A stretch of DNA of 6,430 nucleotides from a virus (lineage: Duplodnaviria; Heunggongvirae; Uroviricota; Caudoviricetes). A program made the position numbers and the translations under genes. The DNA is taken from the IMG/VR virus record IMGVR_UViG_2711768008_000001; one strand, 5' to 3'. Positions within the stretch are counted from its first letter, which is position 1; every line of letters begins with the position of its first letter. This document shows positions 1 to 5,454 of this stretch, piece by piece. The notes beneath the pieces are model-generated. The model was not told the DNA's origin, made no database searches, and saw nothing but the letters and a program-made list of their open reading frames with translations.

Positions 1-22
1 AACTCAGCTCACCGTCGAACAC
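1..22 (-). CDS. T: 5' end of the T reading frame (C-terminal extension of the gpGT tail assembly chaperone fusion); partial, continues beyond the window start
   Basis: The -1 frame relative to G stays open from the slippery site through G's stop to position 1 (GGG AAA GTG TTC GAC GGT GAG CTG AGT ...). Position 22 corresponds to the lambda T start when aligned on the G stop. No independent start codon or RBS is expected because T is made only as a G-T fusion. Confidence 0.5.
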
Positions 23-426
23 TTTCCCGCAGAAACAGGCTCTGCAGGCCCGGCGTCCTCTGCCTGTTCAGGAGCATCATTCACCACAAACTCATACATA
101 CCGGACAGCCGGTACACCACGTTTTCAGCATGAGAAATTGCCTCTGTGGGCCAGGTGGTAAGCACTTCCTGCTCAATCTGTTTAACGGCTTCATTCATGG
201 ACGGCATCTGCGTCTTCTTCGGATGGTTATGCCACAGGGACATCGCAACCACAAAAGCGCCGGTTCTGATGGCGTCTTCCACAGTAAACTTCCGGTTGCT
301 GTCTGACTCCGCCTGTTCTGCCTGCCGTTTCATCAGGTCGAGATGCTCAATACGCTGCAGGGCTGACAGTTCAGAAAGCGTGACGGTCACACCGTTATGT
401 TCAAATGATTCGGTTTTCAGGAACAT
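4..426 (-). CDS. G: Tail assembly chaperone gpG
   Basis: 140 aa ORF (MFLKTESFEHNGVTVTLSELSALQRIEHL...AGKCSTVS) matching lambda G as recalled. ATG at 426 with upstream GGAGAG; TGA at 4-6. Length of 423 nt equals lambda G. Confidence 0.95.
   Translation of the reverse strand: MFLKTESFEHNGVTVTLSELSALQRIEHLDLMKRQAEQAESDSNRKFTVEDAIRTGAFVVAMSLWHNHPKKTQMPSMNEAVKQIEQEVLTTWPTEAISHAENVVYRLSGMYEFVVNDAPEQAEDAGPAEPVSAGKCSTVS
22..28 (-). promoter_or_regulatory. Programmed -1 ribosomal frameshift slippery heptamer G GGA AAG for the G to G-T fusion
   Basis: Plus strand 22-28 is CTTTCCC, so the minus strand reads GGGAAAG. It sits in the G frame as GCG GGA AAG, six codons before the G stop, the same context as the lambda G/GT recoding site. 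Confidence 0.75.
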
Positions 427-441
427 CGCTGACTCTCCGGA

Positions 442-1182
442 TTAACTGGCGGTGACGTTGATTTCTGCAACCGCAGCAAACTCACCATTACCAGATACGA
501 CCGGAATGTTGACCTTGCCTGCAGCAACACCTTTCACGGTGATGGTCATACCACTGACCGACACGGTGGCTTTTGTTTTATCCGCAGACACCGCACGGAA
601 GCTCTTGTCGGTTGCGCCATCCGGCTGGAATGCCACGGTCAGCGTGGTGCTCTGCCCTTTCACTACGGAAGCACTGGCGGGTGTCACCGTCATGCCGGTC
701 GTCGCCGTCACCGTGCTGCGATCTTCTGCCATCGACGGACGTCCCACATTGGTGACCTTCACCGTGCGGGTAATCACCTCCTTCGCCGTCACCGCCTTAC
801 CGATACTGCTGACCCAGCCACGGAACACATCGACCGTGCCGTTCGGGAAGCGGATTTTATAGGCACGGGTATCACCTTCATTAAACCACGCCAGCAGCGC
901 CTGCTGCCCCTGCTCTCCGGGCATCCACGCCAGCGTGAAGCTGGTATCTCCGGCAGATTTCTGCCCCTGCCCGGTCGCAGTCCAGTCCGCATCTTCATCA
1001 TCGAGATAGCTGTCGTCATAGGACTCAGCGGTCAGTTCGCCGGGCGTCAGGTCTTTAACTTTTGCCAGACGCGACCAGTCAACGTCTGAAAGCGGGTTCG
1101 CATAAGGGTCACCGCTCCCCTTATAAACCCACAGGGTGGTCCCGGCACCTTTCACCGGCATTGTAGGATTTGGTACAGGCAT
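442..1182 (-). CDS. V: Major tail tube protein gpV
   Basis: The ORF from internal ATG 1182 ([36 protein letters not shown]...) matches lambda V. GAGGA lies at 1187-1191; TAA at 442-444. Length of 741 nt (246 aa) equals lambda V. The longer ORF-track start at 1212 is rejected. Confidence 0.95.
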
Positions 1183-1189
1183 AGCGTCC

Positions 1190-1442
1190 TCACATTTCAT
1201 AGATAATGACATAAGTCAGATCGGCTGAACTCCACAGGCCCGCATCATCGTCGCGCCGGTAGTCATAGCCGCTGGCCACCATACTGGTGATCAAATCTGA
1301 CAGTGCCGGGATATCGCTCATCACAGGATAAATCCGGGACTCCATCNNNNNNNNNNNNNNNNNNNNNNNNNNNNNNNNNNNNNNNNNNNNNNNNNNNNNN
1401 NNNNNNNNNNNNNNNNNNNNNNNNNNNNNNNNNNNNNTTCAT
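1190..1442 (-). CDS. U: Tail terminator protein gpU, interrupted by the N-run 1347-1437
   Basis: ATG at 1442-1440 overlaps the Z stop as ATGA. Hand translation of the minus strand 1346 to 1190 gives [51 protein letters not shown] then TGA, matching the lambda U C-terminus. The start and the C-terminal fragment are out of frame with each other across the gap. Confidence 0.85.
1347..1437. other. Run of 91 N (assembly gap or masked sequence) inside gene U
   Basis: Seen directly as unbroken N. The flanking U fragments are not in frame across it, so its length is not the true length. Confidence 0.99.
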
Positions 1443-2017
1443 CGCTTTATTACCATTCTCAGTTGATGCTGCAGCGCATAGCCCAGCTCTTTCGGAAGAC
1501 GTTCACGCCGTATCCGTTCAATATTCTGTTTAAACGCCGTGGTCAGCGGCACCGCCATCGGGATTTTCACCACATCAATGGGGTAACGGTTTTTCCCGGC
1601 CACACGCTGCATGACATGCCACCGGCCATTTTTCAGTTGCTGAATAAACGCGCCGGGAATACGACGGTTACCCACCACAAGCACGCTGCCGCCACCTTTC
1701 AGGGATGAACGCTGCCCCTTTTTATGACGCCTGCGGCGGGACAGGACAACCCGCGCATTACCCAGCTTGATTACGGGCAAATCCCCCCGGTTAACTTTGA
1801 TTCTGGCCTGCGGATTTTTGACCGTGGCCCTTTTCAGCCTGGCCCTTTCCTTTACCAGTTTCCGGCGTACCTTTGTCTCACGGGCAACCTGTGACGCAGA
1901 CTGCGATATCGCGGATGAAGCAACGCGGTTAATGGCCATTGCGGCGGCACCGGGCACCGCCGTTTTGCTGATACGGCTGAGGTTTTCAACGGCCTGCTCA
2001 AGACCTTTTATGGCCAT
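1439..2017 (-). CDS. Z: Tail completion protein gpZ
   Basis: 192 aa ORF (MAIKGLEQAVENLSRISKTAVPGAAAMAINRV...) matching lambda Z. ATG at 2017 with upstream AAGGGGGA; TGA at 1439-1441. Length of 579 nt equals lambda Z. Confidence 0.95.
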   Translation of the reverse strand: MAIKGLEQAVENLSRISKTAVPGAAAMAINRVASSAISQSASQVARETKVRRKLVKERARLKRATVKNPQARIKVNRGDLPVIKLGNARVVLSRRRRHKKGQRSSLKGGGSVLVVGNRRIPGAFIQQLKNGRWHVMQRVAGKNRYPIDVVKIPMAVPLTTAFKQNIERIRRERLPKELGYALQHQLRMVIKR

Positions 2018-2833: not shown

Positions 2834-3859
2834 TTACGCCAGTTGAACGGACACGAACTCATCAGGATCAGCCAGCAGCATCAGCGGTGCTGACTGAATC
2901 ATGGTGAACTCACGCGCCGGATCGCCGGTGGTCACCCAGTTTTTCGGGTAACGGGCAGAAGCGTTAATGCCTTCGCGCTGTGCGTCCGCATCCTGAATGC
3001 AGCCATAGGTGCGCAGACCGCGAGCCTGAGTGTTCCCCAGCACCATCGTGTTGTCCGGCAGGAAGTTCTTTTTGACGCCGTTTTCCACGTACTGTCCGGA
3101 ATACACGACGATGGCCACATCGCCATACATTCCCTTATAGGACACCGCTTTGCCCAGGTCTTTTACCGCTGTCTCCAGCTCGGAATGAGAGCCGCGACGG
3201 GTATCCAGCTTCTCCTTGACGGCTTTGAAGGAACGGAACAGCGCCCAGCCTTTCGGGTCAAACACGATGATATTCACCACACCGCTGGCGTTCAGCGCGT
3301 AGGCTTCGATATCGTCGGTCGGGTCATACGTGGACTTGTCACGCTTGCTCCACTCCGTACCGCCGGACTGCGTGATGTTGTTCGCCGCACTGCGGCCCAT
3401 ATCCACCTCAACCGGATCGAAGGCTTCACCGGTCATGGTGTATTTGCCCTTGAGCACGGCAGAAACTGCCTGCATCTCTTCGACCTGAGCAATGGCCAGC
3501 TCTTCGTCACGCATGTTCTGCATGATGATGCGACGGCGGCGGTAAGCCGGGTCCGCCAGATTCTGCGGATCTTCATCCGGCAGGCGACGCAGGGTCATCT
3601 GCGGATTCACCTCATGCTTGGGTTTGACATATCCCGGCGTAAATTCAGAGGTGGAGCCGCCACGGGAACGGATAACCTCACCGGAAACAATCGGCGAAAC
3701 GTACAGCGCCATGTTTACCAGTCCCGGAATTTGTGAGAGATAGACTTTCTCCGTGGTGAAGGGATAGCTCTCACGGAAAAAGAGACGCAGAAACAGCGGA
3801 TCAAACTTAAATTTCTGCTCATTTGCCGCCAGCAGCTGGGCGGTTGTGTACATCGACAT
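2834..3859 (-). CDS. E: Major capsid protein gpE
   Basis: The ORF from ATG 3859 (MSMYTTAQLLAANEQKFKFDPLFLRLFFRESYPF...DPDEFVSVQLA) gives 341 aa, equal to lambda E. The upstream in-frame ATG at 3886 is rejected as an ORF-caller extension. Confidence 0.95.
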   Translation of the reverse strand: MSMYTTAQLLAANEQKFKFDPLFLRLFFRESYPFTTEKVYLSQIPGLVNMALYVSPIVSGEVIRSRGGSTSEFTPGYVKPKHEVNPQMTLRRLPDEDPQNLADPAYRRRRIIMQNMRDEELAIAQVEEMQAVSAVLKGKYTMTGEAFDPVEVDMGRSAANNITQSGGTEWSKRDKSTYDPTDDIEAYALNASGVVNIIVFDPKGWALFRSFKAVKEKLDTRRGSHSELETAVKDLGKAVSYKGMYGDVAIVVYSGQYVENGVKKNFLPDNTMVLGNTQARGLRTYGCIQDADAQREGINASARYPKNWVTTGDPAREFTMIQSAPLMLLADPDEFVSVQLA

Positions 3860-3914
3860 AAAAAAATCCCGTAAAAAAAGCCACACAGGCGGCCTTTAGT
3901 GATGAAGGGTAAAG

Positions 3915-4703: not shown

Positions 4704-5454
4704 NNNNNNNNNNNNNNNNNNNNNNNNNNNNNNNNNNNNNNNNNNNNNNNNNNNNNNNNNNNNNNNNNNNNNNNNNNNNNNNNNNNNNNNNNNNNNNNNN
4801 NNNNNNNNNNNNNNNNNNNNNNNNNNNNNNNNNNNNNNNNNNNNNNNNNNNNNNNNNNNNNNNNNNNNNNNNNNNNNNNNNNNNNNNNNNNNNNNNNNNN
4901 NNNNNNNNNNNNNNNNNNNNNNNNNNNNNNNNNNNNNNNNNNNNNNNNNNNNNNNNNNNNNNNNNNNNNNNATTGGCCAGCGCCCATACCGGCTTTATGT
5001 CACGCACACGGGCGATGATGTCAGCGCAGTCAAATGCTCCCGCCACCATTCCGCCCGGTGTGTCCATATCGAGCAGAATGCCGTCCACCATCGGGTCGCT
5101 GGCAGCCTGTTGCAGACGGGCGATAATGCCGTTGTAACCGGTCATCCCCGAGTACGGCTGCAGCGCCCGCGTCCGGCTGACCAGCGTGCCGGACACCGGC
5201 AGCACGGCGATGCCGTTCATTACCTGATAACTGCGGGCCTGTCGTGGTCCGTCATCATCACCGGATAACGCCAGCGCCGCGGGTGCCTCTCCGGCAGTCA
5301 GGCTGTCGCCGGATACTGCATCCGTCAGGCAGCTGATCCCAAGCTGGCCTGCAAGCGCACAAAAGAAAACCCGCGCATAGGCGGGTTCAAGCATCAGCGG
5401 CTCATTAAAAGCCATGCTGGCAATATGCGGGAGATTACGCAGCTCTGCTGTCAC
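4257..5454 (-). CDS. C: Prohead protease / minor capsid protein gpC (S49 peptidase family), interrupted by the N-run 4704-4971
   Basis: GTG start at 5454-5452 preceded by GGAGG at 5461-5465. The N-terminal 161 aa (TAELRNLPHIASMAFNEPLMLEPAYARVFFCALAGQLG...IKPVWALAN) match lambda C and the C-terminal fragment resumes after the gap. The two fragments are not in frame with each other across the gap. Confidence 0.88.
4704..4971. other. Run of 268 N (assembly gap or masked sequence) inside gene C / Nu3
   Basis: Seen directly as unbroken N. The flanking C fragments are in different frames, and the span is about 120 nt shorter than the recalled lambda C length would require. Confidence 0.99.

What the first reader, a model, noticed from the sequence alone, without database searches (positions are those of the whole stretch)
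1..28. G to G-T programmed -1 frameshift site with the T frame running off the window
The minus strand carries the heptamer GGGAAAG at 22-28, six codons before the G stop, and the -1 frame stays open through the G stop to position 1. This is the classic arrangement in which a small fraction of ribosomes slip to make the gpGT fusion needed for tail assembly. It is a recoding signal that an ORF track alone does not reveal.
Basis: partly seen in the sequence, partly recalled or inferred. Interest (0 to 1): 0.5.

Follow-up and report, generated by a model that had tools for sequence, protein, structure and literature searches.

The report
Lambda G-T tail chaperone frameshift site
This is the well-known "slippery" sequence at the end of phage lambda's tail gene G, where about 1 ribosome in 25-30 slips back one base to make the G-T fusion protein needed for tail assembly; it is real, but ordinary and long known.

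Summary
GGGAAAG lies on the minus strand at 28..22, phased G GGA AAG in a 140-aa ORF (426..4). Five sense codons and a TGA (6..4) follow, and the -1 frame is open from 67 to position 1.

The ORF is lambda gene G (NCBIfam equivalog TIGR01674, 216 bits; 5 of 140 residues differ from lambda). The window's last 45 nt are identical to lambda. The window is a lambda-type head-tail block (B, C/Nu3, D, E, FI, FII, Z, U, V, G) on the minus strand.

The source contig could not be retrieved. In 24 related loci, three of them 99.8-99.9% identical to the whole window, the -1 frame runs exactly 144 codons (TIGR01715, protein T) and overlaps tape-measure gene H.

Across 248 loci (79 distinct junctions) the site is G GGA AAG, G GAA AAG or A AAA AAG in all but two. 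T's first codon is a start codon in only 14 of 79.

Verdict: the Levin-Hendrix-Casjens (1993) G/G-T programmed -1 frameshift. It is already known and annotated in close relatives such as phage 434.

One minor extra: a possible RNA helix starting 8 nt downstream, already flagged computationally in 2014.

The parts
22..28 (-). Slippery heptamer G GGA AAG, the -1 programmed ribosomal frameshift site of gene G
   Evidence: Sequence and phase. Identical in sequence and position to lambda 10109-10115. Conserved in phase in homologues down to 36% protein identity, as G GGA AAG, A AAA AAG or G GAA AAG. Listed as lambda's G/GT slippery sequence in PMC3296357 Table 1.
4..426 (-). Gene G, tail assembly chaperone (140 aa; ATG 426..424, stop TGA 6..4), the zero-frame product
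   Evidence: ORF. PF06894 Phage_TAC_2, E 5e-60. TIGR01674 phage_lambda_G equivalog, 216 bits. Five of 140 residues differ from lambda G (sequences printed).
1..22 (-). First 7 codons of the T frame read after the slip (GTG TTC GAC GGT GAG CTG AGT = VFDGELS). The frame runs off the window. The -1 frame as a whole is open from 67 to 1.
   Evidence: Identical to the start of lambda T. In relatives the frame continues to 144 codons and reaches TIGR01715 phage_lam_T (186 bits) and PF06223.
7..13 (-). Tentative: 5' arm (GGUGAGC) of a possible stimulatory RNA helix starting 8 nt 3' of the heptamer. Its 3' arm and an enclosed hairpin lie beyond the window edge.
   Evidence: about 89% of cells paired against 21-46% in slid controls, and pair 16-84 seen as AU, GC and CG. 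This is weak because few independent events underlie it, it lies in conserved coding sequence, and the RNAalifold covariation term is about 0. PMC4066793 Table S4 scores this cluster 'structure: Y'.
442..1182 (-). Gene V, major tail tube protein, immediately upstream of G (the context that defines the G-T position)
   Evidence: PF16461 Phage_TTP_12, E 1.4e-70, plus Big_2. Annotated V in 434 and lambda.

Best explanation
The site is the programmed -1 ribosomal frameshift signal of a lambda-type prophage or phage tail operon.

Most ribosomes translating G read G GGA AAG in the zero frame and stop six codons later, giving gpG (140 aa). A few percent slip back one base while the Gly and Lys tRNAs sit on GGA and AAG, and re-pair on GGG and AAA. 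They then read GTG TTC GAC ... in the T frame, pass the G stop and make the gpG-T fusion (279 aa in relatives).

The G part binds the tape-measure protein H. The T part recruits the tail tube protein V. The low slip rate fixes a G:G-T ratio of about 25-30:1, which tail assembly needs. Neither protein ends up in the virion.

Shown here: the heptamer, its phase, the stop, the open -1 frame, homology of G, and conservation of the arrangement in relatives. Taken from the literature: the slip itself, its rate and the protein roles. Inferred: that this particular element still has intact T and H beyond the window.
For: Anatomy.

Homology: G reaches TIGR01674 and PF06894. The last 45 nt are identical to lambda and the last 88 nt differ at 4 positions. 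Gene order is B-C/Nu3-D-E-FI-FII-Z-U-V-G.

Extension by proxy: in all 24 loci sharing the terminal 120-mer, or being lambda, T is 144 codons and the fusion 279 aa. In 23 of them an ORF overlapping the T stop by 5 nt follows; it is 849-859 aa (H) where it is complete. L009 is the exception (574 aa, starting 38 nt after the stop). The simulated fusion reaches TIGR01715 at 186 bits.

Selection: 248 loci with 79 distinct junctions give only G GGA AAG, G GAA AAG and A AAA AAG plus two singletons. The G stop is 5 or 1 codons later and T is 112-152 codons. The heptamer is kept while flanking bases vary.

Annotation: phage 434 has a joined GT CDS, and Gifsy-1 and HK225 carry frameshift notes.

Literature: GGGAAAG, about 96% zero frame, and sensitivity to tRNA-Lys thiolation (PMC3296357). 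The 30:1 ratio and the G and T domain roles, and G_GGA_AAG as highly shift-prone in E. coli (PMC5009743). The gpG cluster marked [true] (PMC4066793 Table S4).
Against: Only 7 T-frame codons are inside the window, and the source contig could not be retrieved. An intact T and H in this specific element are therefore inferred.

One related chromosomal prophage (L032) has the heptamer intact, but its T frame is broken after 84 codons and its H is fragmented. So the signal can outlive its function, or that assembly has errors.

No expression data are available here. The window has two N runs, so it comes from an imperfect or masked assembly.
Confidence: 0.95

Rival explanations
1. T is an ordinary separate gene, initiated at the GTG formed by the last base of the heptamer (window 22..20), as the lambda RefSeq record draws it (T CDS 10115-10549). 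No frameshift is involved.
For: NC_001416 and many gene callers list T as a stand-alone 144-aa CDS starting at that GTG.
Against: The first T-frame codon is a possible start in only 14 of 79 distinct homologous junctions; elsewhere it is GCC, GTC, GCT, GCA, GTT or ACC. L033 and L035 have GCG there, yet keep the 144-codon frame. Where no GTG exists, gene callers fall back on an internal ATG and lose 15 conserved residues. The conserved T sequence begins right at the slip point. There is no Shine-Dalgarno motif at a usable distance (sequence). The literature reports expression of T as the G-T fusion by frameshifting.
Confidence: 0.02
2. The signal is a relic. The window comes from a defective prophage, or a broken assembly, in which T and/or H beyond position 1 are truncated, so the heptamer is intact but no longer makes a useful G-T.
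For: L032 (GCA_900449375.1) shows exactly this state: heptamer intact, T frame broken after 84 codons, H in five pieces. The window carries two N runs and its source was not found.
Against: All 24 loci sharing the terminal sequence have an intact 144-codon T frame, and 5 of 6 chromosomal prophages with the identical E protein do too. Every visible gene from B to G is intact outside the N runs. The nearest relatives, at 99.8-99.9% identity, have full T and H where their contigs extend far enough.
Confidence: 0.07
3. The fusion is made by RNA polymerase slippage (loss of one A in the transcript) and not by ribosome slippage.
For: Some homologues have a run of six A's (A AAA AAG) at the site, and transcriptional slippage is known elsewhere (PMC5009743).
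Against: This window and lambda have only three A's, too short for appreciable polymerase slippage (established knowledge). The rate responds to tRNA-Lys anticodon modification, which points to the ribosome (PMC3296357). The review explicitly contrasts lambda GT ribosomal frameshifting with transcriptional slippage systems.
Confidence: 0.01
4. The heptamer is a chance occurrence with no recoding role.
For: GGGAAAG alone is common: 3 copies in 6.4 kb, 0.76 expected. Inside the window the -1 frame can be followed for only 7 more codons.
Against: It is in phase and placed 5 codons before the stop of a G homologue, identical to the experimentally proven lambda site. It is also conserved across 248 loci while the surrounding bases change.
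Confidence: 0.01

Closest known systems
Bacteriophage lambda G / G-T programmed -1 frameshift (Levin, Hendrix & Casjens 1993, PMID 8230192; Xu, Hendrix & Duda 2004, PMID 15469818, and 2013)
   Same: Same heptamer G GGA AAG, same phase and same distance to the G stop. The last 45 nt are identical. G differs at 5 of 140 residues. V is upstream, and T (144 codons) and H are downstream in near-identical relatives.
   Different: Nothing of substance. There are a few substitutions in G (A30D, L59V, Q70K, N117D, T122A, read from the sequences printed). The T and H parts are simply outside the window.
Phage 434 'tape measure protein chaperone' G and GT (OL657226, CPT_434_14/15)
   Same: It is the best annotated match, 98.5% over 1300 nt. 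It carries a two-piece joined CDS annotated as the GT frameshift product, with H starting 8 nt before the GT end.
   Different: 434 is a sequenced phage. The window is probably a prophage copy from a draft or masked assembly.
G-T sites of more distant lambdoid phages (Stx phages, ASU11, HK225/N15 type, phi80, Gifsy-1, cdtI)
   Same: The two-frame G-T architecture sits between the tail tube and tape measure genes, with an A AAG core in phase at the end of G and a T frame of 112-152 codons.
   Different: The heptamer is A AAA AAG or G GAA AAG (not a strict X XXY YYZ). In the Gifsy-1/cdtI type the G stop is 1 codon after the site rather than 5.
E. coli dnaX and IS911/IS3 orfAB -1 frameshift signals
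   Same: Tandem-slippage heptamers ending in A AAG are read by the same tRNA-Lys (mnm5s2UUU). They can be boosted by a structure starting 5-8 nt downstream (PMC4066793).
   Different: Those signals have defined stimulators (SD-like element, stem-loop or pseudoknot) and much higher rates. For G GGA AAG the measured rate is 0.28% with no stimulator, 3.8% with IS911 elements and 43% with the IS3 pseudoknot (Table S3). Lambda runs at about 4%, and the papers I could read name no defined stimulator for it.

Membership tests
Lambda-type tail assembly chaperone G/G-T -1 frameshift | The upstream ORF is a gpG homologue | tested here: met
   PF06894, 201 bits (cutoff 27). TIGR01674 equivalog, 216 bits (cutoff 74).
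Lambda-type tail assembly chaperone G/G-T -1 frameshift | A slippery heptamer in X XXY YYZ phase close to the 3' end of G | tested here: met
   G GGA AAG at 28..22, five sense codons before TGA. Identical to lambda 10109-10115.
Lambda-type tail assembly chaperone G/G-T -1 frameshift | The gene pair lies directly downstream of the major tail tube gene | tested here: met
   V (PF16461, E 1.4e-70) ends at 442 and G starts at 426.
Lambda-type tail assembly chaperone G/G-T -1 frameshift | The -1 frame encodes a gpT domain of about 110-150 codons that overlaps the end of G and lacks its own start | tested here: inconclusive
   In the window only 22 codons of open -1 frame are visible (67..1), and the 7 after the slip are identical to lambda T. 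In 24 relatives the frame is 144 codons and reaches TIGR01715 at 186 bits. The first codon is a start codon in only 14 of 79 distinct junctions. The window's own continuation could not be retrieved.
Lambda-type tail assembly chaperone G/G-T -1 frameshift | The tape measure gene (H) follows T | tested here: inconclusive
   It lies outside the window. An ORF overlapping the T stop follows in 23 of the 24 relatives, 849-859 aa where complete, and PF06791/PF09718 products are called in five of six chromosomal prophages. H is fragmented in L032.
Lambda-type tail assembly chaperone G/G-T -1 frameshift | A G-T fusion protein is actually made at a few percent of gpG and is required for tail assembly | not testable with these tools
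   Known for lambda from the literature only (PMC3296357, PMC5009743).
-1 PRF signals with a 3' RNA stimulator | A conserved RNA structure starts 5-8 nt downstream of the heptamer | tested here: inconclusive
   The candidate helix starts 8 nt downstream. 89% of cells are paired against 21-46% in slid controls, and 5-6 pairs changed on both sides. But the RNAalifold covariation term is +0.22, the single-sequence z-score is only -1.98, several pairs are broken in the Gifsy-type clade, and the pair types follow clades. There is no Rfam family. PMC4066793 Table S4 scores 'structure: Y' for this cluster.

The most novel reading that the evidence does not exclude
The roughly 4% slip rate of lambda-type G-T sites is set not by the heptamer alone but by a conserved RNA helix. 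Its 5' arm (window 13..7) covers the last codons of G, 8 nt after the slip site. Its 3' arm lies about 55 nt further on in T and encloses a GC-rich hairpin.

Support: the bare heptamer gives 0.28% in reporters, against about 4% in lambda. Pairing is kept in 89% of cells across 79 distinct sequences, with G-C, A-U and C-G at one pair.

Even if true, a downstream structure for this cluster was already predicted in 2014. It would be a refinement, not a discovery.
Probability: 0.35. Interest if true: 0.25.

Novelty: already known. Interest (0 to 1): 0.1.

Why it matters
For annotation, it means the window's G gene should carry a second, joined G-T product. It also means that a stand-alone 'T' gene beginning at GTG, or at an internal ATG as several gene callers produced, is a mis-annotation.

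Biologically it adds nothing new. The lambda G-T frameshift has been a textbook recoding case since 1993. It is conserved across long-tailed phages, is covered by phage annotation guidelines (PMC8785237), and is present in thousands of E. coli prophages: G-V region sequence similar to this window was found in 3722 of 5426 complete genomes.

The only loose end of some interest is what raises the bare-heptamer rate of about 0.3% to about 4%.

Tried and rejected
1. Recovering the window's own contig so as to read beyond position 1.
- An exact 120-mer from the window edge gave 0 hits in genome contigs and 22 hits in viral contigs, none of them the source (best 99.8-99.9%, 9 mismatches).
- A 71-mer spanning three window-specific variants gave 0 hits in both collections.
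- An exact-protein lookup with the window's E protein found it to be extremely common (6064 blocks). The six loci returned were only 94-98% identical.
- Complete E. coli genomes gave 99.2% at best.
- The metagenome scan was not used, because the proxy evidence was already sufficient.

2. An ungapped comparison of the window to the loci failed because of indels and N runs. It was replaced by blastn.

3. The first related-loci scan with a T alignment returned 80 loci, all 99% identical to lambda T, which is useless for covariation. Re-ordering the alignment to put Gifsy-1 or phi80 first gave the needed diversity.

4. Xu et al. 2013 (PMC3762263) is not held. I could not read Levin et al. 1993, so I make no claim about what that paper says on downstream stimulators.

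5. Rfam has no family in the window or at the lambda G-T junction.

6. Rejected readings: independent initiation of T, transcriptional slippage, and a chance heptamer (see rival explanations).

Full report
**What is in the sequence**

Read on the minus strand, the window ends ...GTT TCT GCG GGA AAG TGT TCG ACG GTG AGC TGA GTT. GGGAAAG occupies 28..22. It sits in a 140-codon ORF (ATG 426..424, TGA 6..4) in the phase G GGA AAG, with five sense codons (C S T V S) before the stop. The -1 frame has its last stop just upstream of position 67. From there it is open to the window edge: 15 codons before the slip point and 7 after it (VFDGELS).

**Is it more than chance?**

On its own, barely. The heptamer occurs three times in the window against 0.76 expected, and 8 of 200 shuffles reached three. 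Seven further open codons mean little. However:
- The minus-strand copy in gene B is out of phase, and the third copy is on the other strand.
- The other in-phase X XXY YYZ heptamers inside genes (A AAG GGG in Z, A AAT TTC in FII) lead into -1 frames of 15 and 8 codons.
- Two T-rich hits that assigned to 'E' lie upstream of E's real ATG at 3859. They are in the D-E spacer, where phage 434 has an annotated terminator.

The real argument is homology.

**Context**

The window is a lambda-type late operon on the minus strand. It runs from the 3' part of portal gene B through C/Nu3, D, E, FI, FII, Z, U and V to G.
- The 140-aa ORF is gpG: PF06894 at 201 bits and the NCBIfam equivalog TIGR01674 at 216 bits. 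Five residues differ from lambda G (sequences).
- The gene upstream is the tail tube protein V (PF16461).
- The best annotated match is phage 434 at 98.5%. Similar sequence occurs in 3722 of 5426 complete E. coli genomes, at up to 99.2% identity.
- The last 45 nt of the window are identical to lambda, and the last 88 nt differ at four positions.
- In lambda the heptamer is at 10109-10115. The T CDS is annotated 10115-10549 and H is 10542-13103.

**Beyond the window**

Twenty-two IMG/VR contigs share the window's terminal 120-mer exactly. Three of them (L013, L021, L023) are 99.8-99.9% identical to the whole window, with 9 mismatches. In all 22, and in lambda and 434:
- G is 140 aa, the -1 frame continues for exactly 144 codons after the slip, and the fusion is 279 aa.
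- In 23 of the 24, an ORF begins 5 nt before the T stop. It is 849-859 aa where it is complete and runs off the locus in the rest. In L009 the longest ORF near the T stop is 574 aa and starts 38 nt after it.
- The simulated fusion reaches TIGR01715 (phage_lam_T, 186 bits) and PF06223.

Five of six chromosomal prophages that encode the identical E protein show the same arrangement. The sixth (L032) keeps the heptamer, but its T frame is broken after 84 codons and its H is fragmented. That is the one realistic caveat for this copy.

**Evidence that the signal is selected**

tblastn of the fusion against 50,697 phage records finds 185 records. In 39 of the 40 listed, the match is split into two frames, from 98% down to 36% identity; the exception (H80, Providencia) matches only the T part.

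In seven graded homologues the site is G GGA AAG (74% identity), A AAA AAG (52-57%) or G GAA AAG (36-53%). It is always in phase at the end of G and followed by a long -1 ORF.

Across 248 loci (79 distinct junction segments):
- The only forms are those three, plus one GGGAAAA and one AGAAAAG.
- The G stop is 5 or 1 codons downstream.
- T is 112-152 codons.
- The first T-frame codon is a possible start codon in only 14 of 79 distinct sequences.

L033 and L035 have GGGAAAGCG, so GTG has become GCG, yet the 144-codon frame is intact. Where the GTG is missing, gene callers start 'T' at an internal ATG. This rules out T as an independently initiated gene and supports expression by slippage.

**Mechanism (from the literature)**

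- Lambda's G/GT slippery sequence is GGGAAAG. The zero frame is kept about 96% of the time. Under-thiolated tRNA-Lys (mnm5s2UUU) slips more, which lowers the G:GT ratio and the phage yield (PMC3296357; PMC7618472).
- The gpG:gpGT ratio of about 30:1 is crucial. G and the G part of GT coat the tape measure protein H, the T part binds V and starts tube polymerisation, and neither is in the virion (PMC5009743).
- G_GGA_AAG is one of the most shift-prone heptamers in E. coli.
- Sharma et al. list the gpG cluster (G_GGA_AAG_4, 74 genes) as a true case (PMC4066793 Table S4).
- The Phage Annotation Guide cites gpG/gpGT as the standard example of a programmed frameshift (PMC8785237).

**A possible 3' stimulator**

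In reporters, G_GGA_AAG gives 0.28% -1 frameshifting with no stimulator, 3.8% with the IS911 elements and 43% with the IS3 pseudoknot (PMC4066793 Table S3). Lambda's rate of about 4% therefore suggests a moderate stimulator.

Folding the 102 nt from the heptamer onward in the nearest relative gives -41.5 kcal/mol, z = -1.98. RNAalifold on eight graded homologues proposes two elements:
- A 6-bp helix pairing columns 16-22 with 78-84. It starts 8 nt after the heptamer, and its 5' arm is window 13..7.
- A hairpin enclosed by it, at columns 41-76.

Pair counts on those eight sequences give 89.4% of cells paired, against 21-46% in slid controls, and 5 pairs changed on both sides, against 0-2. None of 500 shuffles reached the observed percentage paired or covariation score, and 2 reached the count of pairs changed on both sides. 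On 79 distinct sequences the figures are 88.9% against 21-45%, and pair 16-84 appears as AU 46, GC 17 and CG 10, with 6 unpaired.

Against it:
- The RNAalifold covariation term is +0.22.
- The pair types follow the three clades, so few independent events underlie the counts.
- Several pairs are broken in the Gifsy-type clade.
- The region encodes the most conserved part of T.
- There is no Rfam family.

Sharma et al. already scored 'downstream structure: Y, SD: N' for this cluster. I treat the helix as plausible but unproven and not new.

**Verdict**

This is the lambda G/G-T programmed -1 frameshift site in a lambda-like (pro)phage of E. coli or a close relative. It is already known, and its interest is low.

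Noticed in passing
window 1347-1437 and 4704-4971: There are two runs of N, 91 and 268 bases. The first replaces the 5' two-thirds of gene U. The second replaces the middle of C, including the region where the nested Nu3 start lies in phage 434. Near-identical relatives have 234 and 390 nt at these places, so the N runs do not keep true length or reading frame, and ORF calls across them are artefacts.
   Followed up: partly
window 7-13 (minus) plus about 55-80 nt beyond the window edge; L002 1225-1293: A candidate RNA helix starts 8 nt 3' of the slip site and encloses a GC-rich hairpin. About 89% of cells are paired across 79 distinct homologues, with some double changes. It could be the stimulator that lifts the bare-heptamer rate of 0.28% to lambda's roughly 4%.
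   Followed up: partly
L033 and L035, 13975-13984: In these E. coli prophages the base after the heptamer is C (GGGAAAGCG). T therefore has no GTG start, yet it keeps its 144 codons. Gene callers then start 'T' at an internal ATG (129 aa) and lose conserved N-terminal residues.
   Followed up: yes
L032 (GCA_900449375.1, UGCX01000002.1) 13972-16962: This prophage has an identical E protein and an intact slip site. But its T frame is broken after 84 codons, and the tape measure gene and several tail-tip genes are split into fragments. It is either a decaying prophage or an assembly with indel errors.
   Followed up: partly
window 1715-1721 (minus), in gene Z: An in-phase A AAG GGG heptamer lies in Z, with a 15-codon -1 frame. 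The motif gives 0.13-5.7% slippage in reporters (PMC4066793 Table S3). It is probably incidental. Conservation was not examined.
   Followed up: no
window 3860-3878 (minus), D-E spacer: T-rich runs (TTTTTTA, TTTTTTT) lie just upstream of E's true ATG at 3859. They fall in the spacer where phage 434 has an annotated rho-independent terminator between D and E. The ORF listing extends 'E' through them from an upstream GTG, which is an artefact.
   Followed up: partly
L028-L031 and about 160 IMG/VR loci (L118-L277), at the G-T junction: Most non-lambda members use G GAA AAG, which is not a strict X XXY YYZ heptamer because P-site re-pairing needs a G-U at the middle position. In the Gifsy-1/cdtI type the G stop follows after a single codon. 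Single-locus variants GGGAAAA and AGAAAAG also occur.
   Followed up: partly
PMC3296357, section 9: In the held text of that paper the lambda slippery sequence appears as 'GGGTTTG' with codons 'GGT-TTG', while its own Table 1 gives GGGAAAG. This is a slip in the paper or in the stored text, not a real variant.
   Followed up: yes
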